Of a DNA stretch of 60,574 nt, positions 2,862 through 27,581 are shown piece by piece. The DNA is from an uncultured delta proteobacterium (GTDB lineage: Bacteria; Desulfobacterota; RBG-13-43-22), in assembly GCA_963843145.1 (NCBI GenBank), contig CAWJJC010000014.1, forward strand, positions 1 through 60,574. The letters are read 5' to 3'. The notes under the pieces are model-generated. The model made no database searches and was not told the DNA's origin. It saw nothing but the letters and a program-made list of their open reading frames with translations. Both the position numbers and the translations under genes were made by a program. Position 1 is the stretch's first letter; each line of letters starts with the position of its first letter.

Positions 2862-5036
2862 TCATTCCTCCAATGCAAAGTGCTTTTTTTCCAACAAGAA
2901 TTCCCGATCTTCCGGCCAGCCCTGCTCCACCCCTTCCCGAAACCAAGCCAGGGCCGCCCGCCGGCAGAGGGATTCGACCTGGGCGCCGGTCCAGTCGACG
3001 GTTTGCCCCAGCAGCCAATCCATGGTCACCTCCGAGGAAAGGGGCTTCCCGGCGAGATGAATGGCCAGAATTTCTCTTCGCTCCGACTCTTCGGGAATGG
3101 CCAGGACGATTCGAAGCTCAAAACGGCCGGGCCGGAGCAGCGAGGGGTCTATTACCTCCGGCTGGCTGGTGGCCCCGACGATAAACACCCCTTTCAATTT
3201 TTCCACCCCATCCATTTCGGTGAGGAGCTGACTGACCATGCGGCTGGTCACCTTGGAGCTTCCCCAGTCCAATCCCCTCTGCGCGGCAAAGGAATCAATT
3301 TCATCAAAGAAGAGGATGCAGGGAGCCGCCAGCCGGGCCTTGCGAAAAATTTCCCTTATCCGCTCTTCGCTTTCCCCCACATACTTGCTGAGCAGTTCCG
3401 GACCTTTGACGGCGATAAAATTCAGACCGCTCTCCCGGGCCAGGGCCTGGACCAGCAAGGTTTTCCCGGTGCCGGACGGCCCGGTGATCAAAATCCCTTT
3501 GGGCGGTTCGAGGCCCAGGGCCGCGTACCGCTCCGGGAATTCCCAGGGCCATTCGAAGGCCTCTTTCAGGGCCTTTTTGGCCTCATGGCAACCACCCACC
3601 TGCTCCCAGCGCACCTGGGGCAACTCCACCTGCACCTCCCGGATGGCCGAGGGTTCCACCTCTTTGAAGGCCTCATCAAAATCCACCGCCTCCACGGACA
3701 ACCCCTCCAAAAACTCGGGCGTCACCGTCTCCTGGACCAAATTCAGGCGGGGCCGGATCCTCCGCAGGGCGCAAAGACCTGCCTCCTGGCAGAAAGCCTT
3801 GAGGTCGGCGCCTACAAAGCCGTGGGTTTTTTTGGCCCAGACCTCCAGGTCGATATTCGGGGACAGGGGCATATTCCGGCTGTGGATCTTCAGAATTTCC
3901 AGGCGCCCTTTCTCGCCGGGTACCTCGATGGAGATCTCCCGATCAAAGCGACCCGGCCGTCTCAAAGCCGGGTCCAGGCTGTTGGGAATATTGGTAGCCC
4001 CCATGACCACCACTTGCCCCCGGGATTCCAGACCGTCCATGAGGGCCAATAACTGGGCCACGATCCGCTTTTCCACCTCGCCCTCCGTTTTTTCTCTTCG
4101 GGGAGCCAGGGCGTCGATTTCGTCCAAAAAGATAATGGCCGGGGCATTTTCCTGGGCTTTTTCAAAAATAGAGCGGAGTTTTTCCTCGCTTTCCCCGTAA
4201 TGACGCTGCATGATCTCGGGTCCGTTGATATGATAAAATTGGGTCTGAGTCTCCTGGGCCACGGCCCGGGCGATCAAGGTCTTTCCCGAACCCGGCGGAC
4301 CGTGAAGCAGAATCCCCTTGGGGGCATCAACCCCCAGCCGGGAAAAAATCTGCGGAAAGCGCAAGGGCAGTTCCACAATTTCCCGAATCCGTTCGATCTC
4401 CTTCTCCAGGCCCCCGATATGCTGATAACTGACGGCGTTGCTCCTGCGCCCTTCCCCGGTTTCCTCCTGAAACACCAGGGCGGTTTGAGACCCGACCTGA
4501 ACCGGGCCTGCCGGTTGGGTGGCCTGGACCCAAAAAACATCCTTTTTATCTCCGCCCAGGGAAACCGGGATACGGTTGCCGGCCAACACGATAATCTCTT
4601 GAAGTCGTTCTTTGAGGATCGCCTTCCGTTCCTCCTTGATCAATTGGGATTTTTCGGGAATCAAAACGATTTCCTCGGCCGGAAGGGCTCTGGCCTTCTG
4701 GACAATAATCTTGCTGAACAGAAAGGTCCCGGCATTGCTGAGCGTCAGCGGGTCCAGGTGAATAACGGCTTCGGAGCCGATAATGGGGGCCGAAGGCCCC
4801 ACCGGGACCACGGCTGATTGGGTACCCTTCAACAGCAGAAAATCGCCTTCCTGAACCTTGAGGTACTTCATGTTAGACGGAGAGATGCGGACCTTGAAGG
4901 ACTCCCCGTCTTCAAGTAAGGCCTTGACTACATGAAGGGCCACCTGATGATGGCCGCAGGTCTGATCCCGGCAATCCTTACACGTGTGGTGGAAAGGGTC
5001 GTTTACCTGGGTTTCATGGGGGCAGTGCTCGGACAT
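2862..5036 (-). CDS. CDC48/p97/VAT-family double AAA+ ATPase
   Basis: N domain plus D1 (GPPGSGKT, IIFLDEID, ALRRPGRFDRE) and D2 (GPSGTGKT, LFFDEID, LLRPGRF), with EVEPSAIRE linker. Start at ATG 5036 after GGGAGG. Confidence 0.93.
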   Translation of the reverse strand: MSEHCPHETQVNDPFHHTCKDCRDQTCGHHQVALHVVKALLEDGESFKVRISPSNMKYLKVQEGDFLLLKGTQSAVVPVGPSAPIIGSEAVIHLDPLTLSNAGTFLFSKIIVQKARALPAEEIVLIPEKSQLIKEERKAILKERLQEIIVLAGNRIPVSLGGDKKDVFWVQATQPAGPVQVGSQTALVFQEETGEGRRSNAVSYQHIGGLEKEIERIREIVELPLRFPQIFSRLGVDAPKGILLHGPPGSGKTLIARAVAQETQTQFYHINGPEIMQRHYGESEEKLRSIFEKAQENAPAIIFLDEIDALAPRREKTEGEVEKRIVAQLLALMDGLESRGQVVVMGATNIPNSLDPALRRPGRFDREISIEVPGEKGRLEILKIHSRNMPLSPNIDLEVWAKKTHGFVGADLKAFCQEAGLCALRRIRPRLNLVQETVTPEFLEGLSVEAVDFDEAFKEVEPSAIREVQVELPQVRWEQVGGCHEAKKALKEAFEWPWEFPERYAALGLEPPKGILITGPSGTGKTLLVQALARESGLNFIAVKGPELLSKYVGESEERIREIFRKARLAAPCILFFDEIDSFAAQRGLDWGSSKVTSRMVSQLLTEMDGVEKLKGVFIVGATSQPEVIDPSLLRPGRFELRIVLAIPEESERREILAIHLAGKPLSSEVTMDWLLGQTVDWTGAQVESLCRRAALAWFREGVEQGWPEDREFLLEKKHFALEE

Positions 5037-20033: not shown

Positions 20034-22010
20034 TTAGGCCGCTTCCATTTCCCGGCGGCTGGCCATATCCATCAGGACCCGTTCGCGGGTCTTGTCTATG
20101 CCCAGGGCCTTCCGTTTCTTATCAATGTGTTCGATCATCAAACGGGCCATTTCGTAGGGATCGGCCGTAAAGCCCCATTTCCCCAAACCCAGTTCCTCCA
20201 GGCCTCCGAATAGATGCCGATGAAACTTGGTTTCCTCGACGATCGGAAAGGTTACCCCGAAGACGGTATAGACCCCGGAGGCCACAAAATACTGGCCGAT
20301 GGAGATGGCCTTTTCGCTCATCCATTCCGGAGCGGCCCCGGCCACCGGTAAATCGGCGATGCTCTGTCCCAATCCGCCATTGCGGACCATTTCCGCGCAG
20401 GCAGTCAGAATGCGGCTGTTGTCCACGCAGGAACCCAGGCCTAAAACCGGGGGCATGCCCACGGCTTCACAGACCTCCCGCAGGCCCGGGCCCGCCAGGT
20501 AGGCGGATTCCGGCAGGTAGAGTCCGGCCTTGGCCAGGGCCACCTGGGAGCATCCGGTCTGAACCACCAGGATGTCGTTCTTAATCAGTTCCTTCACCAG
20601 TTCCACATGGACCCAGTCCTGTTTGACCCGGGGATTGGTACAGCCCACCACGCCGGCCACACCGCGAATCCGCCCGTTAATAATATTGTCGTTCAAAGGC
20701 CGGTAGGAACCCCGAAAGGTCCCGCCCAGCATATAATTGATATATTCATGGGAAAAGCCGTGGACGCCGATGCTTTTGAACCGGGGAATTTCAATGGGCA
20801 GTTTCCGGTTTTTGAAGCGGTCGATGCCCAGGCGGACGATAGTATCGGTACAGACCCGGGGTTCATGTTCCACGAAGGGCAGATGGTCGGCCCCTTCAAT
20901 TCGGCAGCGGGGATTGGTGGTGAAAAGGCGGGTCCCGTAACATTGGGCGACCTTGGCCAGTCCCTGCTTGATGCACTGGACGTCGACCCCCATGGCATCG
21001 ACGGCCCCGGTTACCAGGACGGCCTCGGTGGACATAAAATTTCCCGCATGGGGTATGCCGTGGCGGCCCATCATTTCCGCCCCGGAGCAGCACATCCCCA
21101 CCAGGTTAATGCCCTTGGCCCCGGCGGCCCGGGCCTCTTGGAGCAGGGCCGGGTCGCTGACGGAAGCCAGGATGGACTCGAACAGGTTGGGTTCATGCCC
21201 GTGGATGATGATATTGACCTCATCCTCCTTCAGACAGCCCATGTTGACTTCCGCGGTGACGGGCATGGGGGTCCCAAAGAGGATATCGGAGATTTCAGTG
21301 GCCACCATGGAACCTCCCCAACCATCGGACAGGGCGGTCCGGTTGCATTGTTTGGTAATATTTTCGTAATGCTGATCCACCCCCATATGGGTGCGATGCA
21401 TCAATTCCATAACCTCGCGCATGGCCCCCCGGGGCACGATCCCCTGTTTCCGCCAGTTTTCCAGCGTTTTTTCCGGGACCCGTTTGACAAAAGGGATCTC
21501 CCCTTCCACCTGGATATAGGTCCGCTCGAGTTCGTGATAGACGTCACTAGCAATGGCCATCAGCTCGCGCCCTTCCGTTTCGATCCCCAGTTCTTTGGCC
21601 AGTTCCTCCAGTTTCAGGGGGTCCTTGATGCCGTAATCGGTAATGTTGCCGTTGACAACCTCCCGGAAAAGTTCCAGCATGCTCATCCCATGGTCGGTGT
21701 GGGCCGCCGCCCCGGCGGCCACCATGCGGGCGAAATTCCGGGACATGATGGTATCGATCGTGGCCCCGCAAACACCCACTTTTCCGTAGGGGTCTTTGGA
21801 TGAAAGCCTACATGGCCCCATGGCGCAATGCTTGCAACAGGCCGAATCGGCCCCGATAGGACAGGCTTTCATGGAATCGGCCCGGTGAAAGGCGGTTTCC
21901 ACGCCGTCCCTCTCAGCCTTCCGCAGCATCTGGGCCGTGGCCTCACAACTGGTCACCGCCTGGATATTGAGGGGCTTTAATCCGGTGGGGGATTTTACTT
22001 CTTTTTCCAT
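20034..22010 (-). CDS. cooS: Anaerobic Ni-Fe carbon monoxide dehydrogenase catalytic subunit
   Basis: CPIGADSACCKHCAMGPC (D/B clusters); C-cluster ligands HGHEP, GMCC, DVQC, VGCTN, TGCS, GSCVDNSR; WMSEKA. Confidence 0.96.
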   Translation of the reverse strand: MEKEVKSPTGLKPLNIQAVTSCEATAQMLRKAERDGVETAFHRADSMKACPIGADSACCKHCAMGPCRLSSKDPYGKVGVCGATIDTIMSRNFARMVAAGAAAHTDHGMSMLELFREVVNGNITDYGIKDPLKLEELAKELGIETEGRELMAIASDVYHELERTYIQVEGEIPFVKRVPEKTLENWRKQGIVPRGAMREVMELMHRTHMGVDQHYENITKQCNRTALSDGWGGSMVATEISDILFGTPMPVTAEVNMGCLKEDEVNIIIHGHEPNLFESILASVSDPALLQEARAAGAKGINLVGMCCSGAEMMGRHGIPHAGNFMSTEAVLVTGAVDAMGVDVQCIKQGLAKVAQCYGTRLFTTNPRCRIEGADHLPFVEHEPRVCTDTIVRLGIDRFKNRKLPIEIPRFKSIGVHGFSHEYINYMLGGTFRGSYRPLNDNIINGRIRGVAGVVGCTNPRVKQDWVHVELVKELIKNDILVVQTGCSQVALAKAGLYLPESAYLAGPGLREVCEAVGMPPVLGLGSCVDNSRILTACAEMVRNGGLGQSIADLPVAGAAPEWMSEKAISIGQYFVASGVYTVFGVTFPIVEETKFHRHLFGGLEELGLGKWGFTADPYEMARLMIEHIDKKRKALGIDKTRERVLMDMASRREMEAA

Positions 22011-22309
22011 TTTTTCTTCCTCCTTCGTAGTTAAAACAACCGTTTACTTCGCCCTCACACCAGCCAAGCAACAATCTTGGAGATACTAAGGCCTGAACTC
22101 AACCTCTTAACTATTTTAATAATAGTTATTAATAATATTAAACCATAAAAAAGAAAAGTCAAGAGAGCGGATAACTCACTCATTGGGGGGAGATCAAGGA
22201 CTTGTTTTGGGCACGAGAGGGGGGGCTAATTAAAAAAATTTATGTCTTTGGTTTTACATCCGAAATTCGTATTTCGAATTTTTATATAAGCAACTTACCA
22301 GAGATTCTT

Positions 22310-22326
22310 CAGCTCACCCGGAGCCG
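22310..22326 (-). promoter_or_regulatory. Candidate bacterial SECIS for UGA 22338-40
   Basis: CGGCTC-CGGGT-GAGCTG stem-loop starting 11 nt after the UGA. The next TGA (22314-16) lies in its 3' arm. Confidence 0.55.
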
Positions 22327-23456
22327 GTCTTCGTGGCTCAGGTAAAAGGAGATGATGGCGGAGGGCCGTCCAGGCTGCTCAAAGTGGTTAATCCGGGAGA
22401 GGGTCTTTTCGCTTCCACCGGTTTGGGAGCCAGGGAATCCATGGCCCGCTGCTGAATTAATTGGGTCTTCGTGGCTCCGACCGTCATGGCCAGGGCCAGG
22501 GTCTCCTGGATCTCCTCTTCGGTAGCGCCCAAATCCCTTGCGACCGCAAGGCAGTAAGCCGTTCAGGGCTCGCATCCGGCCCCCAAGGAGGCCCCCAGAG
22601 CGATCAGGTGCTTCATCTTGCGGTTGATGGCCCCGTCGGCATAGGCGGTCTCAAAAAATTCCCGGTATTTGTTCAATCCGTCTTCGACCCCCATGCCTTT
22701 TCCTCCTTCACTTTTTGTTGCCCTAAACAATGTCCCTTTGGTATCCGGCGAACTGTTAAACCCGGTTTCTCCGGCCGACTTAGCCCCATTGAACCCCGCT
22801 TCCTTCATCAAGGCCAGGAAATCCTTTCCCGGTATGGCCCCGCCTTCTCAGCGGAACCAGCTTTCGATTCGTTCCTGAGGGCTCTTGGTCAGGGCCCCGC
22901 TCAAAATTTGGTCGGCGATCAATAGCCGGCCGTTCGGTTTCAAGACGCGACAAGCCTCCTTCAACATGCGGCCCTTGGCGGGGATCAAATTAAACACCCC
23001 GTTAGAAATGACCACATCGAAGCTCCCGTCGGGGAAGGGCAGGTCTTCTCCGAAAAATTCCTGGAAAGCCACGTTGGTCAAGTCCGTCTGTTTCAGGTTT
23101 TCATAAGCCCGGGCGACCATTTCCGGAGACAAGTCCAAACCGACCACTTTCCCGCCCGGGCCCACAAGGCGGGCGGCCACCATACTGTCCAGCCCCCCAC
23201 CGCTGCCGATGTCCAGGACCGTTTCCCCCCGGTCCACCGAACCCAGAGAGAAAGGATTGCCCACACCGCAGAAAGAATCCAGAATTTCATCCGGCAAGGT
23301 TTTCAATAATTCGGGATCATACTGCAAGGCCTCCAAGCCGGACTTTCCGGTGGGGTATTTGAACAATCCCTGGGGGCCGGCCGCCACCTGGGCATATTTT
23401 TTCCGAATTCCGGTTTCAATTTTATTTTTATCTTCCAGGGTCAACGACAGTTCCAT
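22314..23456 (-). CDS. Predicted multi-selenocysteine protein: ArsM-like SAM methyltransferase (Sec) fused in frame to an AhpD/CMD domain (CxxU) and a Sec-containing tail
   Basis: One frame 23456-22314 with in-frame TGA at 22848-50 (SWFR-U-EGGAI), 22563-65 (GCEP-U-TAYC) and 22338-40 (PFT-U-ATK), each followed by a hairpin. ArsM motifs FCGVGNP, LDIGSGGG, ISNGVFNL; CMD motif KHLIALGASLGAGC. Confidence 0.8.
22536..22551 (-). promoter_or_regulatory. Candidate bacterial SECIS for UGA 22563-65
   Basis: CCTTGC-GGTC-GCAAGG perfect stem, G-first loop, starting 11 nt after the UGA (fdhF-like geometry). Confidence 0.78.
22814..22832 (-). promoter_or_regulatory. Candidate bacterial SECIS for UGA 22848-50
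   Basis: CCGGGAAA-GGA-TTTCCTGG stem-loop starting 15 nt after the UGA. Confidence 0.6.
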
Positions 23457-23457
23457 A

Positions 23458-23763
23458 TCAGGCCTCCCGCACCTCTTCCCAGGCCCTTTGCACGGCTTCG
23501 GTCAGATCGCCCATTTCCGGGATATGGTCAAAGGCGATCTTTTCGTTGATCACGATCGAAGGAACAGCCGGTTTCCGGCCGGATAACCGGGTAAGTTCTT
23601 CATGCCGCAGCAACCCTTCCCGGGCCCCCATATCCACCACTTCCCAGGTTAATACGCCGGGCTCAAATTCCGGGGCGATTTCTTCCAGGATGGCCAGGGC
23701 CAAGTCGCAGAGCATGCAGCCCTTCTTCTTGGCGATAATCTCCACATAGACTTTTCGGTCCAT
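23458..23763 (-). CDS. Thioredoxin/glutaredoxin-fold protein (CMLC)
   Basis: GCMLC CxxC and AVPSIVINEKIAF cis-Pro motif. Its stop is 1 nt before the methyltransferase start. Confidence 0.8.
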   Translation of the reverse strand: MDRKVYVEIIAKKKGCMLCDLALAILEEIAPEFEPGVLTWEVVDMGAREGLLRHEELTRLSGRKPAVPSIVINEKIAFDHIPEMGDLTEAVQRAWEEVREA

Positions 23764-23818
23764 CTTCTATTTCTTCCGGTCCGGCATGACGTAGTCAACC
23801 CAGGCTCTAATTCAGCAT

Positions 23819-23995
23819 TTACACGCGCTCAAGATACTCGGATAATTCCTGGTAATTGACCCGGTCTCCTACGAAACGCTCCACTTCCGGGCCCTCCCGG
23901 TAGACCACAAAGCTGGGGGCGCTGAGAATGTTCAGTTTCTTAACCAGTCCCTGAATGTTGGCCACGTATAATTTCACCCATTCAGAAATATCCAT
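23819..23995 (-). CDS. 58-aa C-terminal half of a thioredoxin (no CxxC); fragment or pseudogene
   Basis: Manual translation MDISEWVKLYVANIQGLVKKLNILSAPSFVVYREGPEVERFVGDRVNYQELSEYLERV; below the ORF-track cutoff. Confidence 0.5.
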   Translation of the reverse strand: MDISEWVKLYVANIQGLVKKLNILSAPSFVVYREGPEVERFVGDRVNYQELSEYLERV

Positions 23996-24066
23996 GGATG
24001 ACTTTCCTCTTCCCCAGGGTCTGCCTTGATCCTTTCTTCCTTTAACCTTTTCCCCCGAACCCCTGA

Positions 24067-24574
24067 TTAATCCAATAATACCATACCGTACCAGGCCGGC
24101 AACAACTTTCCTTCCTTATCGAATTCTACCTTAAATCCCAACGGCTCAATGGTCTTCCCGATATCCATCCCGTAGGCGTCCATGGAGGGCCGGGCCAGGT
24201 GCGGGAAGTTGCAGGGATTGGGGAAGGCGCATTCGTCACACTGGACGCAAAGGACCAAGGCCAGGGCATAGGAACAGTTGTAGGAGAGCATGGCCTCCTT
24301 TTCCACGGCCAGGGCAACGTTCTGTCCTCCTTTTGGCTCTGTAGTCTGGAGGACCAGGCCCCAACGATAGCGTTCGAAAGCCTCCTTAAACAGTTCCTGA
24401 GGGAATGCTCATGTTGGGTGGGCAGGTCCAGAACTTCCCCCAGCGACTGCAGCCGAACCGACATTTGAGAAAAGAGCGGGGATCAAAAACGACTTGACTG
24501 GTTTCCAAAAGTTTCGCTTTGGCTGCTCCCAGTTCAATGGCTTTTGTTTCTAAGGGTTCAAAATAGGTTCTCAT
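24067..24574 (-). CDS. DUF2284-like Cys-rich metal-binding protein; one frameshift near 24400
   Basis: KCRFGCSRWGKFWTCPP, then in the shifted frame QELFKEAFERY...CVQCDECAFPNPCNFPHLARPSMDAYGMD. Confidence 0.75.
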
Positions 24575-24629
24575 GATTTCCTCCGTATTTTCGTACTAAC
24601 CCATCAGGCCGTCGGCCTTTGGTAGAGCG

Positions 24630-24860
24630 CCGGCAAGCAGTACCGGCAAAGATTTCACAATGGAGCCGGAGAGTATTTAAAGTCGATCCAGGGGCTTTTC
24701 CCCGCAGGTCCAGATGATCCGCGGGCGGTCCATCAGTCGCTGAAACACACTCCGGGAAAGAAGGGCCGCAACCAGTCCGTCCAGTATGGGACCCCGGATA
24801 TAAACGGAAAAGAATCTGCTATAGGAACTTTTACTTTTTGTGGGGTAAACCTATAGTCGG
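24630..24860. mobile_element. Possible degenerate IS91/ISCR-family remnant
   Basis: + strand fragments RRVFKVDP and DDPRAVHQSLKH resemble an IS91 transposase C-terminus. Minus strand AAAAGTAAAAGTTCCTAT (about 24821-24838) resembles an oriIS end. Confidence 0.3.
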
Positions 24861-25057
24861 AGTCGGTCAGAAGACTTTCGGCCACTGCAAAATACGCCGA
24901 AGCAGGGTGGTTTTTCCGGCCCCTAAAAATCCGGCGATGAGGATAACGTCGCACAAAGATTCAGGAGGAGCTTCTTTGGGGGATTTCACTGGACCTCCTT
25001 TCCAAGGGCGGCAGAAAGTTTTTATCATAATAATTTTTTCAGGTTTTTTTGAAAAAA

Positions 25058-25399
25058 TTATTTCTCGAACTTTATTTCAGCGTCCTTGGGCAATGCCATA
25101 CCCATGGTCACTTCGGCCGTTTTTAAGACCGCAATCGGCACCGGGCACATGGGGTGGCAGCCGGACTGCTGCGCCGCCTGGAAGACGAGGCTCTTGCTGA
25201 TCGGGGCGAACAGATCCCGCAGGCTGATTTCCTGGATTTGCTCGAAGAACCGCTGAATGTGTTTGCACTCCGAACCCCGGCCGTGGAGTTCGACCAAGTA
25301 TTTGTCTTTTTTTTCCCCTTCGATAACGCAGGGAAAACCGCAGATTCCCGGATTGACGTGTACCCGGGTCAGTTCTTTTTTTTCAGGCGGGTCTTCCAT
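25058..25399 (-). CDS. Small Cys-containing protein (DUF6951-like)
   Basis: VNPGICGF, SECKHI, CHPMCPVPIAVLKTAEV...LPKDAEIKF. Confidence 0.7.
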   Translation of the reverse strand: MEDPPEKKELTRVHVNPGICGFPCVIEGEKKDKYLVELHGRGSECKHIQRFFEQIQEISLRDLFAPISKSLVFQAAQQSGCHPMCPVPIAVLKTAEVTMGMALPKDAEIKFEK

Positions 25400-25484
25400 A
25401 AAAAGGTCATAGTCCTAGGGGTATCTATCCTTCGCGATTTTGCAGGGGCGGGTTTAGCACCCGCCCCTACAAAATACACCCGGT

Positions 25485-27581
25485 CTACTTCTGGTGCAGT
25501 ACTTCCGGCGGCACAATCCCTTCCAGGTGTGGGAAGGCATCCTTCATGTGCGGTATCTGCAGGGATTCAATAAACTGGGCCTGGAAATCCTTTTCCATGG
25601 TCAATTCCAGGTACTCCACGTTGCGGGAGACCCAGTTGGCTTCCACCCGTTTCTCCCGGTTCAACAGGGCCGCCCGGGCGCCGTCACCGGCCGCGTTGCC
25701 CACCGAAAGGATCTTTTCGATGGCGCAGTCCGGGAACAGGCCCATGATCAGGGCTTTGGTCCGGTCCACGTGGGTTCCGAAGGCCCCGGCGATCTTGACC
25801 ACATCCACCTGATCGATGTTCATCTTCCTCATCATCAGCTTGCACCCCGTGTACAGGGCTCCTTTGGCTAATTGGATCTGGCGCACGTCCTTCTGGGTGA
25901 TGACCACGTCCCGCTCGATGCCGGTCTCATTGGCCCAGGCGATGACGAATTCCGGCTGTTTGGTGTCGGCGTTCAGACGGAACCGGTTGGATTTCTGAGT
26001 CTTGTTGAACACCCCGCTTTTCACAATGACCCCCGAGGTGTAAAGTTCGGCCAGAACATCCAGAATCCCCGAGCCGCAAATCCCCTTGGTCTTCATCTCC
26101 TCCGGTTTGGAAAAGCTTCTCCAGGCATCCCGGCCGATGACCTTATAATCCACCGCGTGGGTCTCCGGATCGATCTTGATCCGTTCGATGGCCCCGGGGG
26201 CCGCCCGCATGCCATAGGCCAATTGGGCCCCTTCCAAGGCGGGGCCGGTGGCGCAGGAGGAAGAAATCATTTTTTCCTTGTTACCCAGAACCAACTCGCC
26301 GTTGGTCCCGATGTCGATGAGCAACTGGATTTCATCGCTTTTGTAGGGGGCTTCGGCGATCAGCACGCCCACGTTGTCCGCCCCCACAAAACCGGCTTCG
26401 TTGGGCAGGAGGTGGACATAGGCCGAATCATTGATTTGAATCTTCAGGTCCCGGGCCTTGATATCCAAGCTCCGGTGAACCACCGGGGGAAAGGGGGGCA
26501 AACCCACAAATGCCGGGTCCAGCTTGAGCAGGATGTGATGCATGACGGTGTTGCAGACGATGGTCATGTCCACAATATCCTTGGGTTCCAGGCGCAGGTA
26601 GCTCCTGCCTTCCGCGGGCGCCTCTTCCCAGGTCTCAATGACTTGATCGCCTTCTTTGACCTTCTTTTTCTTTCTGGGCGGATAGGTGGACTCCACGGCC
26701 TGTTGGACCAGGATATTCAGACCCTCGATCAGGTCGTTGCTCATCCGCTCCAGGCCGTTTTCGTTCATCATGTGGTAGGTGATCCGGCTCATCACATCTT
26801 CCCCGTATTTACACTGGGGATTCATCATGGAGACCGTTTCAATGACCTCCATGGTCTTCAGGTTACAGAGATAGGCGGCCACGGTGGTGGTGCCGATATC
26901 CACGGCCAGCCCATAATTGGCGGCTTCTTTTCCCCCGGGCAGAACCCGGATGATTTCCTTGTCCATCCAGACCGAAACGGTCAGGGAAAAGCGCCGTTTA
27001 CTTCGCAGGCGGCCCGGCAAATCCATCAGGGCCCGGTAGTCGATAGTCAGGTCCCGGAGGCCAAACCGGCGGTTCAACTCCTCCTGAACCCGCTCGAAAT
27101 CCCCGGTGGGATGCTCGAAGGTGGGTTCAATGACCTCCACGTAATATTCCTTGACCGCCGGGTTCCAGTCGATGGGAATATCCCGGGCGGCCTTGCGGAC
27201 CACCTGTTTCCCCGCCCGTGATTCCTCGGGCACAAAAATTAACAGGTCTCCTTCGACTTTGGCGCAACAACCGAGCCGGTATCCCCGTTCGCGCTGTTCC
27301 GCGTTGATGAACCGCCCCTCCTCTTCCCTCCAGGGGCTGACCTGGCTGCGGCTGGACTGGATCCCGTATTTGTCATCGCCGCCTTCTTCAATCCGCACCA
27401 GGCATTTGCCGCAAGCCCTTTTCTCCCCGCAAAGGGCTTCGATATCCACGCCTACCCGGCGGGAGGCCTCGATAATGGTCATCCCCCTATCGACTTCGCC
27501 CCGGCGTCCGGAAGGTTGAAAAATCAATCTCGCTTTGTCCGCCACCATTTGTCTTGACTCGTTGGAGTCCTTCTTATTCAA
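25485..27581 (-). CDS. ASKHA-domain reductive activator of corrinoid proteins (RACo) with N-terminal 2Fe-2S ferredoxin
   Basis: CGEKRACGKC...RLGC, DIGTTT, GFVGAD, DIGTNGE, GICGSG, AGAFG, GNAAGDGA. Confidence 0.92.
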   Translation of the reverse strand: MNKKDSNESRQMVADKARLIFQPSGRRGEVDRGMTIIEASRRVGVDIEALCGEKRACGKCLVRIEEGGDDKYGIQSSRSQVSPWREEEGRFINAEQRERGYRLGCCAKVEGDLLIFVPEESRAGKQVVRKAARDIPIDWNPAVKEYYVEVIEPTFEHPTGDFERVQEELNRRFGLRDLTIDYRALMDLPGRLRSKRRFSLTVSVWMDKEIIRVLPGGKEAANYGLAVDIGTTTVAAYLCNLKTMEVIETVSMMNPQCKYGEDVMSRITYHMMNENGLERMSNDLIEGLNILVQQAVESTYPPRKKKKVKEGDQVIETWEEAPAEGRSYLRLEPKDIVDMTIVCNTVMHHILLKLDPAFVGLPPFPPVVHRSLDIKARDLKIQINDSAYVHLLPNEAGFVGADNVGVLIAEAPYKSDEIQLLIDIGTNGELVLGNKEKMISSSCATGPALEGAQLAYGMRAAPGAIERIKIDPETHAVDYKVIGRDAWRSFSKPEEMKTKGICGSGILDVLAELYTSGVIVKSGVFNKTQKSNRFRLNADTKQPEFVIAWANETGIERDVVITQKDVRQIQLAKGALYTGCKLMMRKMNIDQVDVVKIAGAFGTHVDRTKALIMGLFPDCAIEKILSVGNAAGDGARAALLNREKRVEANWVSRNVEYLELTMEKDFQAQFIESLQIPHMKDAFPHLEGIVPPEVLHQK

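What the first reader, a model, noticed from the sequence alone, without database searches (positions are those of the whole stretch)
22314..23456. Hidden three-selenocysteine methyltransferase-AhpD/CMD protein split into three ORFs by UGA
Seen: ORFs 22848..23456, 22563..22811 and 22338..22532 share one frame and are separated only by TGA codons. UGA1 (SWFR-U-EGGAI) falls where ArsM/AS3MT enzymes have a conserved W-x-x-C cysteine, and it restores the missing methyltransferase C-terminus. UGA2 completes a CEPU version of the AhpD CxxC motif. UGA3 lies in a low-complexity tail (PFT-U-ATKTGSG). Each UGA is followed by a G-loop hairpin, two of them exactly 11 nt downstream as in E. coli fdhF. Known: Sec variants of ArsM-like and AhpD-like proteins exist. 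Inference: a 380-aa enzyme that couples SAM methylation of a metalloid/thiol substrate to an on-board selenol reductase with a swinging Sec arm. It may correspond to the MduS selenoprotein family; I cannot confirm that from memory.
Basis: partly seen in the sequence, partly recalled or inferred. Interest (0 to 1): 0.88.

Follow-up and report, generated by a model that had tools for sequence, protein, structure and literature searches.

The report
Known three-selenocysteine methyltransferase-AhpD selenoprotein
One gene that looks broken into three pieces by stop codons really encodes a single 380-residue enzyme containing three selenocysteines, but this protein family and its three selenocysteines are already catalogued.

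Summary
On the minus strand, 23456..22317 is one reading frame interrupted only by TGA at residues 203, 298 and 373. The next TGA, at 22314-22316, is the stop.

The read-through product scores 593.8 bits against NCBIfam NF041537, "arsenite methyltransferase/AhpD domain selenoprotein" (cut-off 510). It covers the whole profile. It is not MduS: 115.6 bits against a cut-off of 380.

The genome has selA, selB, selD and a tRNA-Sec with anticodon TCA.

Across the window plus 24 related loci:
- TGA sits at site 1 in 25 of 25.
- TGA sits at site 2 in 22 of 25; two have Cys and one has Arg.
- In 23 of 25, a tail TGA is followed by 2-9 in-frame codons and then a stop.

A hairpin starts 11 nt after the tail TGA. 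It is 96.9% paired, and 5 of its 6 pairs show compensatory changes. The third selenocysteine is therefore well supported.

A 2026 review table already lists NF041537 with three Sec, citing Haft and Tolstoy 2025. The finding is real but already known.

The substrate is untested. One of the canonical arsenite-binding cysteine columns of ArsM is an invariant Gly here, and another Cys is shifted by two residues.

The parts
22314..23456 (-). Whole gene: 380 codons (23456..22317) plus the terminating TGA (22314-22316). It encodes the ArsM-like/AhpD-domain selenoprotein.
   Evidence: Translation with TGA=U. NF041537 scores 593.8 bits against cut-off 510, protein 1-341 on profile 1-345/345. A six-frame search of the genome gives 582.5 bits with 2 TGA inside the match. 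A GGGAGG motif lies 7 nt upstream of the ATG (read directly).
22713..23456 (-). ArsM-like SAM-dependent methyltransferase part (about residues 1-248), with C63 and Sec203.
   Evidence: Pfam Methyltransf_31 on residues 75-202, E 4.3e-30. ArsM structures 5evj, 5eg5 and 4fr0 match with E 4e-24 to 4e-22 over residues 49-226.
22848..22850 (-). UGA1 = Sec203 (motif W-F-R-U-E-G-G).
   Evidence: Aligns with the conserved Cys of ArsM and with Cys in the all-Cys fusion relative L139. TGA here in 25 of 25 AhpD-type sequences and in 55 of 55 further relatives.
22814..22832 (-). SECIS-like hairpin 1: CCGGGAA / loop AGGAU / UUCCUGG, starting 15 nt after UGA1.
   Evidence: 100% of cells paired in 24 distinct sequences, with no double-sided changes. 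Synonymous sites in these codons are nearly frozen.
22470..22670 (-). AhpD/CMD domain (residues 263-329), with C295-E-P-U298.
   Evidence: Pfam CMD PF02627, 50.3 bits against cut-off 23. Aligns to AhpD/CMD structures with CxxC on C295/U298.
22563..22565 (-). UGA2 = Sec298 (C-E-P-U).
   Evidence: TGA in 22 of 25. TGC (Cys) in L084/L085 and CGA (Arg) in L072. Cys in L139 (CIPC).
22536..22551 (-). SECIS-like hairpin 2: CCUUGC / loop GGUC / GCAAGG, starting 11 nt after UGA2.
   Evidence: Present in the minimum-energy fold. 91.7% of cells paired, 3 of 8 pairs changed on both sides, and 0 of 500 shuffles reach the observed pairing or covariation score.
22317..22424 (-). Flexible C-terminal tail (residues 345-380) carrying Sec373, then A-T-K-T-G-S-G.
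   Evidence: pLDDT below 50 for residues 345-380. The tail peptide after the TGA is conserved in relatives.
22338..22340 (-). UGA3 = Sec373.
   Evidence: In 23 of 25 sequences the first in-frame nonsense codon after the AhpD domain is TGA. It is followed by 2-9 sense codons and a stop: TGA in 19, TAG in 2, TAA in 2. In 11 of the 23 it forms C-x-x-U.
22310..22326 (-). SECIS-like hairpin 3: CGGCUC / loop CGGGU / GAGCUG, starting 11 nt after UGA3. The stop codon at 22314-22316 lies inside its loop and 3' arm.
   Evidence: 96.9% of cells paired in 22 distinct sequences. 5 of 6 pairs are changed on both sides (19 cells). 0 of 500 shuffles reach this, and slid controls give 34-44% paired. No terminator-like site is called here.
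23458..23763 (-). Upstream gene for a glutaredoxin-like CxxC (CMLC) protein. Its stop lies 1 nt before the selenoprotein's ATG. Possible redox partner (inference).
   Evidence: Pfam Glrx-like gives only a weak hit, E 6.4e-4 and 20.4 bits, below the cut-off of 26. A tblastn match was found in 7 of 23 related loci.

Best explanation
The gene is an intact member of the curated family NF041537 (arsenite methyltransferase/AhpD domain selenoprotein).

Decoding. One mRNA is translated through three UGA codons as selenocysteine. Each UGA is followed at 11-15 nt by a short hairpin with G-rich loop bases. The inference is that each hairpin recruits SelB carrying Sec-tRNA(Sec). Translation stops at the fourth TGA (22314-22316), which lies inside the third hairpin.

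Product. An ArsM-like SAM methyltransferase domain has Sec203 in place of a substrate-binding Cys. It is joined by a short linker to an AhpD/CMD redox domain with C295-x-x-U298. It ends in a disordered tail of about 35 residues carrying Sec373.

Function (inferred, not shown). SAM-dependent methylation of a soft metalloid or chalcogen bound by Cys63/Sec203. The AhpD CxxU and the mobile tail selenol would serve as an internal redox relay or hand-over arm, re-reduced by a thioredoxin-fold partner such as the CxxC protein encoded just upstream.
For: Shown by tools:
- The frame is interrupted only by TGA.
- NF041537 scores 593.8 against 510 bits over the full profile and 582.5 bits in the genome search.
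- Sec machinery in the same genome: selB 368.8 bits, selA 609.4 bits, selD 395.3 bits with its own in-frame TGA, and a tRNA-Sec at 75.1 bits with anticodon TCA.
- U203 aligns with an ArsM Cys.
- C295/U298 align with the AhpD CxxC.
- An all-Cys fusion relative has Cys at site 1, CIPC at site 2 and a Cys-rich C-terminal tail.

Comparative evidence (window plus 24 loci):
- TGA at site 1 in 25 of 25.
- TGA at site 2 in 22 of 25.
- Tail TGA followed by a short in-frame extension in 23 of 25.
- In L062 and L063 the extension runs on through GGA-GCx to TAG. In the metagenome protein P0002 a Gln replaces the fourth TGA. This makes the fourth TGA a stop and the third a sense codon.

Hairpins:
- UGA3: 96.9% paired, 5 of 6 pairs with compensatory changes. 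It stays anchored 11 nt from UGA3 whether the final stop lies in the spacer or in the 3' arm.
- UGA2: 3 of 8 pairs compensatory.
- UGA1: 100% paired.
- Codon entropy at invariant residues is 0.50 bits in the 7 hairpin codons against 1.46 bits in the 60 others. 0 of 10,000 permutations are as low.

Other: the tail is disordered in the model. A review table lists the family with 3 Sec (passages seen).
Against: - No direct evidence of expression or selenium incorporation was obtained.
- Folding energies of the single 60-nt stretches do not beat shuffles, and the UGA3 hairpin is not in that stretch's minimum-energy fold.
- Rfam gave no relevant match.
- The NCBIfam short name is 'UU', and the profile ends at residue 341, before the tail.
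- The UGA2 hairpin is also kept in the rows with Cys (L084, L085) or Arg (L072). It overlaps the conserved peptide LAVAR, so it is not diagnostic by itself.
- The UGA1 hairpin shows no double-sided changes.
- Two of the 24 loci break the pattern. L072 has Arg at site 2, a TAG in the linker and no tail TGA. L079 has a TAA 20 codons before its tail TGA.
- The window's own tail lacks the Cys of the C-x-x-U seen in 11 of 23 relatives.

Against arsenite as the substrate:
- NF008823 (arsenite methyltransferase) scores 183.9 against a cut-off of 263.
- G153, invariant in 22 sequences, occupies the ArsM Cys column 'visnCvinl'.
- C63 lies two residues N-terminal of the ArsM 'GCG' Cys.

The hairpin ranges for the codon-entropy test were chosen after the hairpins had been seen, and the sequences are related to one another.
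Confidence: 0.88

Rival explanations
1. Two-Sec protein. UGA1 and UGA2 are Sec, but the tail UGA3 (22338-22340) is the real stop, giving a 372-residue protein. The downstream hairpin would then be a 3' structure unrelated to recoding.
For: The NCBIfam short name is ArsM_AhpD_UU, and its profile ends before the tail. The tail is low-complexity and poorly conserved between distant members. The window's tail has no Cys next to the TGA. Single-sequence folding does not single out the hairpin.
Against: - 23 of 25 sequences have TGA, never TAA or TAG, as the first nonsense codon at the end of the tail. A second stop follows within 2-9 codons.
- The peptide after the TGA is conserved (ATKTGSG, ATQxRSG, PTxSSSG).
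- L062, L063 and P0002 extend it through a sense codon where others have the fourth TGA.
- 11 of 23 have C-x-x-U.
- The hairpin is anchored 11 nt from UGA3 with 5 of 6 compensatory pairs.
- It is not followed by a T-run.
- A review table gives 3 Sec for the family.
Confidence: 0.08
2. Decayed gene or other recoding. The three ORFs are remnants of a pseudogene, or TGA is read as Trp or Gly throughout the genome, as some metagenome gene callers assumed.
For: The JGI translations P0002 and P0008 show W at these positions. Nearby genes in the window do look decayed: DUF2284 is split over two frames, and there are CobW and thioredoxin-like remnants.
Against: - The same three TGA positions are kept over sequences only 48-58% identical, with no other stops or frameshifts.
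- Cys occupies these columns in homologues.
- The genome has a complete Sec system.
- The upstream gene ends on TGA at 23458-23460, and table 11 gives normal long ORFs across the window.
Confidence: 0.02
3. A genuine arsenite methyltransferase. The protein does exactly what canonical ArsM does, stepwise methylation of As(III), with Sec simply replacing Cys. The AhpD domain and tail would replace the thioredoxin-dependent reduction steps.
For: The best solved-structure matches are ArsM enzymes. NCBIfam and JGI names say arsenite methyltransferase. U203 sits on an As(III)-binding Cys column. That this column is an As(III)-binding Cys in ArsM is recalled knowledge, not from a call.
Against: - NF008823 scores below its cut-off, 183.9 against 263.
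- The ArsM 'SNC' Cys column is an invariant Gly.
- The 'GCG' Cys is displaced by two residues.
- There is no Cys in residues 1-62.
- No ars genes were seen among the ten neighbours scanned. These were RACo, DUF6951, DUF2284, a Glrx-like protein, CooS and an ABC transporter.
Confidence: 0.3

Closest known systems
NCBIfam NF041537, arsenite methyltransferase/AhpD domain selenoprotein (ArsM_AhpD_UU). Listed with 3 Sec in Table 1 of PMC13188914, which cites Haft and Tolstoy 2025.
   Same: Full-length match above the curated cut-off. Same domain order. UxxG and CxxU motifs. A third Sec.
   Different: Nothing that sets the window's gene apart from the family. Within the family it belongs to the 'long tail' form (U + 7 residues + stop), and its tail lacks the C-x-x-U cysteine that 11 of 23 members have.
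MduS (NF045649, methyltransferase domain-containing double selenoprotein)
   Same: A methyltransferase plus a C-terminal region that matches the AhpD-like part. The best matched stretch (one of two) is protein 254-344 on profile 228-318/338.
   Different: Scores 115.6 bits against a cut-off of 380, so it is a different family. The review lists MduS with 2 Sec and CxxU only.
ArsM_DUF2284_UU (NF041536) and MTase_UXPK_star (NF047649)
   Same: The same Sec-containing methyltransferase core: 370.2 and 321 bits over residues 1-250. The second Sec lies outside the core. Of 55 further loci, all have TGA at site 1, and many continue into a DUF2284 domain.
   Different: They carry different C-terminal partners. 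Both score below their cut-offs here (575 and 460).
Canonical ArsM/AS3MT (NF008823; structures 5evj, 4fr0, 5eg5)
   Same: Same fold family, and a conserved Cys column now occupied by Sec203.
   Different: Scores below the family cut-off. Gly sits at the 'SNC' Cys column, the 'GCG' Cys is shifted by two residues, and an AhpD domain and a Sec tail are added.
AhpD/CMD family (PF02627; 5dik, 7y4r, 1vke) and Sec-containing AhpD-like proteins
   Same: A helical CMD domain with the redox motif at the same columns. CxxU variants are listed in the review.
   Different: Here the domain is fused behind a methyltransferase and followed by a Sec tail.
E. coli fdhF-type bacterial SECIS
   Same: A hairpin starting 11 nt after UGA, with G and U in the apical loop, for example GGUC after UGA2. 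The fdhF details are recalled, not taken from a call.
   Different: Three elements sit in one mRNA. The third overlaps or lies beyond the stop codon. SelB binding was not tested.

Membership tests
NF041537 ArsM/AhpD domain selenoprotein | HMM score above the curated cut-off over the full profile | tested here: met
   593.8 bits against 510, profile 1-345/345. 582.5 bits in the six-frame genome search.
NF041537 ArsM/AhpD domain selenoprotein | UGA at the methyltransferase UxxG site | tested here: met
   U203-E-G-G. TGA in 25 of 25.
NF041537 ArsM/AhpD domain selenoprotein | UGA completing CxxU in the AhpD domain | tested here: met
   C295-E-P-U298, aligned to the CxxC of 5dik, 7y4r and 1vke. TGA in 22 of 25.
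NF041537 ArsM/AhpD domain selenoprotein | Third Sec (the review table gives 'No. of Sec' = 3) | tested here: met
   A tail TGA with a conserved extension in 23 of 25, and a covarying hairpin 11 nt downstream. Where the primary paper places the third Sec could not be read.
NF041537 ArsM/AhpD domain selenoprotein | Host has the Sec-insertion machinery | tested here: met
   selA, selB and selD above their cut-offs. tRNA-Sec with anticodon TCA.
MduS (NF045649) | HMM score above the curated cut-off | tested here: not met
   115.6 bits against 380. The best matched stretch (one of two) covers only the C-terminal AhpD-like part.
Canonical arsenite methyltransferase (NF008823) | HMM score above the curated cut-off | tested here: not met
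   183.9 bits against 263.
Canonical arsenite methyltransferase (NF008823) | Conserved substrate-binding cysteines. The set is recalled; the columns were read. | tested here: not met
   Sec at the 'geC' column. Gly153, invariant in 22 sequences, at the 'snC' column. C63 lies two residues before the 'GCG' Cys. No Cys in residues 1-62.
Canonical arsenite methyltransferase (NF008823) | As(III) methylation activity | not testable with these tools
   Needs enzymology.
AhpD/CMD (PF02627) | Pfam score above the gathering threshold, with the redox motif in place | tested here: met
   50.3 bits against 23. CxxU on the CxxC columns.
Bacterial SECIS | Hairpin a short fixed distance 3' of UGA with G in the apical loop, conserved across homologues | tested here: met
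   Spacers of 15, 11 and 11 nt. Loops AGGAU, GGUC and CGGGU. Pair counts; codon entropy.
Bacterial SECIS | SelB binding and Sec insertion | not testable with these tools
   Needs reporter assays or 75Se labelling.

The most novel reading that the evidence does not exclude
The enzyme is not an arsenite methyltransferase. It has lost part of the ArsM cysteine set (invariant Gly153, shifted Cys63) and gained three selenols: Sec203, C295-x-x-U298 and the tail Sec373. It may therefore be a self-contained methylation and redox machine for another soft substrate, such as selenide, tellurite, Hg(II) or a persulfide/selenosulfide. In this reading the disordered tail selenol physically shuttles the substrate or reducing equivalents between the AhpD site and the methyltransferase site. 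How much of this the primary paper already proposes could not be checked.
Probability: 0.3. Interest if true: 0.55.

Novelty: already known. Interest (0 to 1): 0.25.

Why it matters
For annotation: standard gene callers cut this gene into three ORFs or read TGA as Trp. The correct model is one 380-residue protein with three Sec. Bacterial proteins with three Sec are rare. The review describes only 'a small subset' of its 119 families as having 2-3 Sec.

For biology: the family couples a methyltransferase to two further selenol sites, and its substrate has not been tested. The comparative data here may help with design of expression constructs. They show three conserved recoding hairpins, the third overlapping or lying beyond the stop codon, in two tail forms (U + 7 residues, and U + 2-3 residues). 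None of this changes the classification, because the family and its Sec count are already catalogued.

Tried and rejected
MduS membership: rejected on score. A whole-word literature search for 'MduS' found only unrelated uses among the 10 papers listed of 48. The name does appear in the review table.

Fourth TGA (22314-22316) as a fourth Sec: rejected.
- No hairpin follows at 11-15 nt. Only an AU-rich stem lies about 37 nt downstream (z -1.25).
- The sequence after it is not conserved even within the genus.
- L062 and L063 have GGA there followed by a TAG two codons later.

UGA3 hairpin as an intrinsic terminator: not supported. No terminator-like site is called there. The nearest minus-strand call is at 22181..22165.

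Rfam scan of 22000-24800 at E up to 10: four chance-level matches with E 2 or more, and nothing related to recoding.

Single-sequence folding: uninformative.

Conserved operon: only partly found. tblastn of eight window neighbours against 23 related loci found the following (L085 was left out because it is near-identical to L084):
- The Glrx-like gene in 7 loci.
- DUF2284 and CooS in only 2 loci (L060, L061).
- The ABC ATPase in L060 and L061, plus a weak 30%-identity hit on the opposite strand in L068.

Structure: an AlphaFold2 model was made, but its coordinates are not readable in the script box. Distances between the Sec and Cys sites were therefore not measured, and no fold search was run.

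Primary paper: Haft and Tolstoy 2025 (PMC12013261, doi 10.1128/msystems.01417-24) is not held. What it says about the tail Sec, the substrate and the neighbourhoods was not seen. Only passages of the review PMC13188914, of PMC1976440 and of PMC13326102 were read. Supplementary files were not consulted. A search for 'AhpD domain selenoprotein', 'NF041537' and 'ArsM_AhpD_UU' found only that review.

Selection of rows:
- Of the 79 loci, the 24 whose match reached past query residue 330 were used for the three-site counts.
- The other 55 were examined only for site 1 and what follows it.
- L072 and L079 were left out of the UGA3 hairpin alignment (A2) and of A5, because they have no tail TGA as the first stop.
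- L085 was left out of A5 as near-identical to L084.
- L060, L061, L073 and L082 appear to be the same records as L032, L031, L033 and L034.
- Of the 8 rows without internal stops, only the G045 row was examined (L139).
Full report
WHAT IS THERE

On the minus strand an ATG at 23456 is preceded by GGGAGG and by the TGA stop of the upstream gene. It opens a frame that runs to 22311 with no TAA or TAG. The frame contains four TGA codons, at residues 203, 298, 373 and 381.

FAMILY

The read-through product scores 593.8 bits against NCBIfam NF041537, 'arsenite methyltransferase/AhpD domain selenoprotein' (short name ArsM_AhpD_UU, cut-off 510). Protein residues 1-341 cover profile positions 1-345 of 345. 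A six-frame search of the window's own genome with that model finds this place alone above the cut-off, at 582.5 bits with 2 TGA inside the match.

Related models score below their cut-offs:
- ArsM_DUF2284_UU: 370.2 against 575.
- MTase_UXPK_star: 321 against 460.
- Arsenite methyltransferase NF008823: 183.9 against 263.
- MduS: 115.6 against 380.

Pfam sees a class-I methyltransferase domain at residues 75-202 and a CMD/AhpD domain at residues 263-329.

SEC MACHINERY

The same genome (97.9% complete, 32 contigs) carries:
- selB, 368.8 bits.
- selA, 609.4 bits.
- selD, 395.3 bits, itself with one in-frame TGA.
- A tRNA-Sec at 75.1 bits. ARAGORN reads it as tRNA-SeC with anticodon TCA.

CYS/SEC PAIRING

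In phmmer alignments to solved ArsM structures (5evj, E 4.2e-24; 5eg5), U203 lies on the Cys of '..geC(l)(a/g)ga..'.

The same alignments show two departures from ArsM:
- The query has Gly153 where ArsM has the Cys of 'visnCvinl'.
- The query's Cys63 (FCGVGNP) lies two residues before the ArsM Cys (FWGCGNP).

In alignments of the AhpD part, C295 and U298 lie on the CxxC of 5dik (CPGC), 7y4r (CDGC) and 1vke (CDDC).

An all-Cys fusion relative from another genome of the phylum (L139, a 505-residue ORF) aligns at 32% identity, E 7e-45. It has Cys at site 1, CIPC at site 2 and the canonical ArsM cysteines. It ends in a Cys-rich tail (..RCGPGGCGCSAPAK) that BLAST did not align to the window's tail.

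RELATIVES

A scan of 401 genomes of the phylum with NF041537 gave matches at E up to 1e-60 in 38 genomes. Four were above the cut-off, including the window's genome. Five places covered the whole profile, each with two TGA inside.

A scan of genome contigs gave 79 loci. In 24 of them the match reached the AhpD part. Their record titles are mostly metagenome-assembled genomes labelled delta proteobacterium, Thermodesulfobacteriota, Syntrophaceae, Desulfomonile or Desulfobaccales.

Reading these 24 plus the window through gave the following:
- Site 1 is TGA in 25 of 25.
- Site 2 is TGA in 22 of 25. It is TGC in L084 and L085, two near-identical records, and CGA in L072.
- The first in-frame nonsense codon after the AhpD domain is TGA in 23 of 25.
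- In those 23 it is followed by 2, 3, 7 or 9 sense codons and then a stop: TGA in 19, TAG in 2, TAA in 2.

The residues after the tail TGA are conserved within groups: ATKTGSG, ATKAGSGGA, ATQxRSG, PTxSSSG, AGQSHSG. Eleven of the 23 have C-x-x-U in the tail.

Three sequences show that the fourth TGA is the terminator and the third is read through:
- In L062 and L063 the position of the window's fourth TGA is GGA, and the frame ends two codons later on TAG.
- In the metagenome protein P0002, which its source translated with W at each TGA, that position is Gln.

The two exceptions are:
- L072, from a Desulfoferrobacter suflitae isolate record: Arg at site 2, a TAG in the linker and no tail TGA.
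- L079: a TAA 20 codons before a tail 'KGSP-TGA'.

A further 55 loci with the same methyltransferase core but other C-termini all have TGA at site 1.

RECODING SIGNALS

Anchored on each TGA, the downstream sequences align almost without gaps.

After UGA3, a 6-bp stem starts 11 nt downstream. In the window it is CGGCUC-CGGGU-GAGCUG. Elsewhere it is, for example, CCGCUC-UGGAU-GAGCGG, AUGCCC-UGGAC-GGGCAU, CCACUC-AGGGU-GAGUGG or GCCGCCC-UGGAA-GGGCGGC. Counts on 22 distinct rows:
- 96.9% of cells are paired.
- 5 of 6 pairs are changed on both sides (19 cells).
- 0 of 500 column shuffles reach the observed pairing, double-change cell count or covariation score.
- 3 of 500 shuffles reach the count of pairs with a double change.
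- Sliding the 3' partners by 1-3 columns drops pairing to 34-44%.

The stem keeps its distance from UGA3 whether the final stop lies in the spacer (short tails) or in the loop and 3' arm (long tails, as in the window). This argues that it belongs to UGA3 and not to the stop or to coding constraints. No terminator-like site is called there.

After UGA2, CCUUGC-GGUC-GCAAGG starts 11 nt downstream. Over 8 pairs, 91.7% of cells are paired and 3 pairs are changed on both sides. 0 of 500 shuffles reach the pairing or the covariation score. The rows with Cys or Arg at site 2 keep this stem, and it overlaps the conserved peptide LAVAR.

After UGA1, CCGGGAA-AGGAU-UUCCUGG starts 15 nt downstream. It is 100% paired in 24 rows but shows no double-sided changes.

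An independent check used 67 alignment columns with an invariant, degenerate amino acid (22 sequences). The 7 columns in the UGA1 and UGA2 hairpin codons have a mean codon entropy of 0.50 bits, against 1.46 bits for the other 60. 0 of 10,000 permutations are as low, and the five lowest columns of all 67 are hairpin codons. The ranges were chosen after the hairpins had been seen, and the rows are related to one another.

Against this, folding energies of the single 60-nt stretches are ordinary (z 0.15, -0.08, -0.10), and the UGA3 hairpin is not in that stretch's minimum-energy fold. Rfam has nothing relevant.

PROTEIN ANATOMY

An AlphaFold2 model built on the 22-sequence alignment has mean pLDDT 83.1 and pTM 0.65. 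It has a confident methyltransferase domain, a low-confidence linker (residues 252-259), a helical AhpD domain and a tail (residues 345-380) below pLDDT 50.

The invariant columns in the 22 sequences include C63, U203, C295, U298, U373 and G153.

HOW IT MOST LIKELY WORKS

Shown: one gene; three conserved TGA sites on Cys columns or in a conserved tail; a conserved hairpin after each; and Sec machinery in the genome.

Inferred: SelB-dependent insertion of Sec at all three sites, with termination at 22314-22316.

Inferred with less certainty: SAM-dependent methylation of a soft metalloid or chalcogen held by Cys63/Sec203. The AhpD C-x-x-U and the mobile tail selenol would act as an internal redox relay. 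The upstream CxxC thioredoxin-fold protein (23458..23763) would be a possible reductant. Its Pfam hit is weak, and it was found in only 7 of 23 related loci.

Arsenite as the substrate is not established. The canonical ArsM model is below its cut-off, and part of the ArsM cysteine set is missing.

COMPARISON WITH WHAT IS KNOWN

The family has a curated NCBIfam model. [quoted passage not shown] It gives motifs UxxG and CxxU, No. of Sec 3 and representative WP_349247334.1, citing Haft and Tolstoy 2025. That primary paper is not held, so I could not see where it places the third Sec or what function it proposes. A search for the family name and accession found only the review.

VERDICT

The finding is real and well read. 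But this is a member of an already catalogued family, not MduS, and the biochemical story remains inference.

Novelty: already known. Interest: low to moderate, because three-Sec bacterial proteins are rare and the substrate is untested.

Noticed in passing
window 24067..24574 (-): A DUF2284 gene is split over two reading frames. The N-terminal part is 24386..24574 and the C-terminal part is 24067..24306, and both hit PF10050. The break lies near 24390-24400. In the close relatives L060 and L061 the two parts lie in one frame. This is either a frameshift mutation or an assembly error in the window.
   Followed up: partly
window 24867..25028 (-) and 23819..23995 (-): There are short remnants of two genes. 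One is a 53-residue ORF with only the P-loop start of CobW (PF02492 positions 2-22). The other is a 58-residue ORF that looks by eye like the C-terminal half of a thioredoxin-like protein; it has no Pfam hit and no upstream in-frame TGA. Together with the split DUF2284, the stretch upstream of the selenoprotein gene looks partly decayed.
   Followed up: partly
window 25058..27581 (-) and 20034..22010 (-): The surroundings are genes of corrinoid and CO metabolism. Upstream lie RACo (reductive activator of corrinoid proteins, 698 aa) and DUF6951. Downstream lies a CooS/prismane-family protein (658 aa), followed by an ABC ATPase and a FtsX-type permease. CooS and DUF2284 are shared only with the two closest loci; the ABC ATPase also has one weak opposite-strand hit in L068.
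   Followed up: partly
own genome, G000:C27:447576-448499 (L010): The selD gene of this genome has one in-frame TGA, so it is probably itself a selenoprotein.
   Followed up: no
L072 (Desulfoferrobacter suflitae record), match 3001-4086: This family member has TGA kept at site 1 but CGA (Arg) at site 2, a TAG in the linker before the AhpD part and no tail TGA. It may be a decaying or split version of the gene in a cultured isolate.
   Followed up: no
L079, match 3001-4062: A TAA interrupts the tail 20 codons before a conserved 'KGSP-TGA-GS-TGA' ending like that of L074. This is either a recent nonsense mutation or a sequencing error.
   Followed up: no
P0004 (metagenome protein, 395 aa): In this relative, which carries a DUF2284 match (PF10050), the source's translation shows W (TGA) in linker motifs 'PGGT-W-PS' and 'PGAT-W-PS'. 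These resemble the 'PGG[ST]-U-PR' tails of L080 and L082. Linker or tail Sec may be a recurring feature of this methyltransferase clade.
   Followed up: no
window 22165..22181 (-) and 22134..22162 (-): A terminator-like hairpin with a T-run is followed directly by promoter-like hexamers (TTGACT, 16-17 nt, TAATAT) in the AT-rich spacer between the selenoprotein gene and the CooS-family gene. A palindrome, AAAUUCGAAAUACGAAUUU, lies at about 22262..22280.
   Followed up: no
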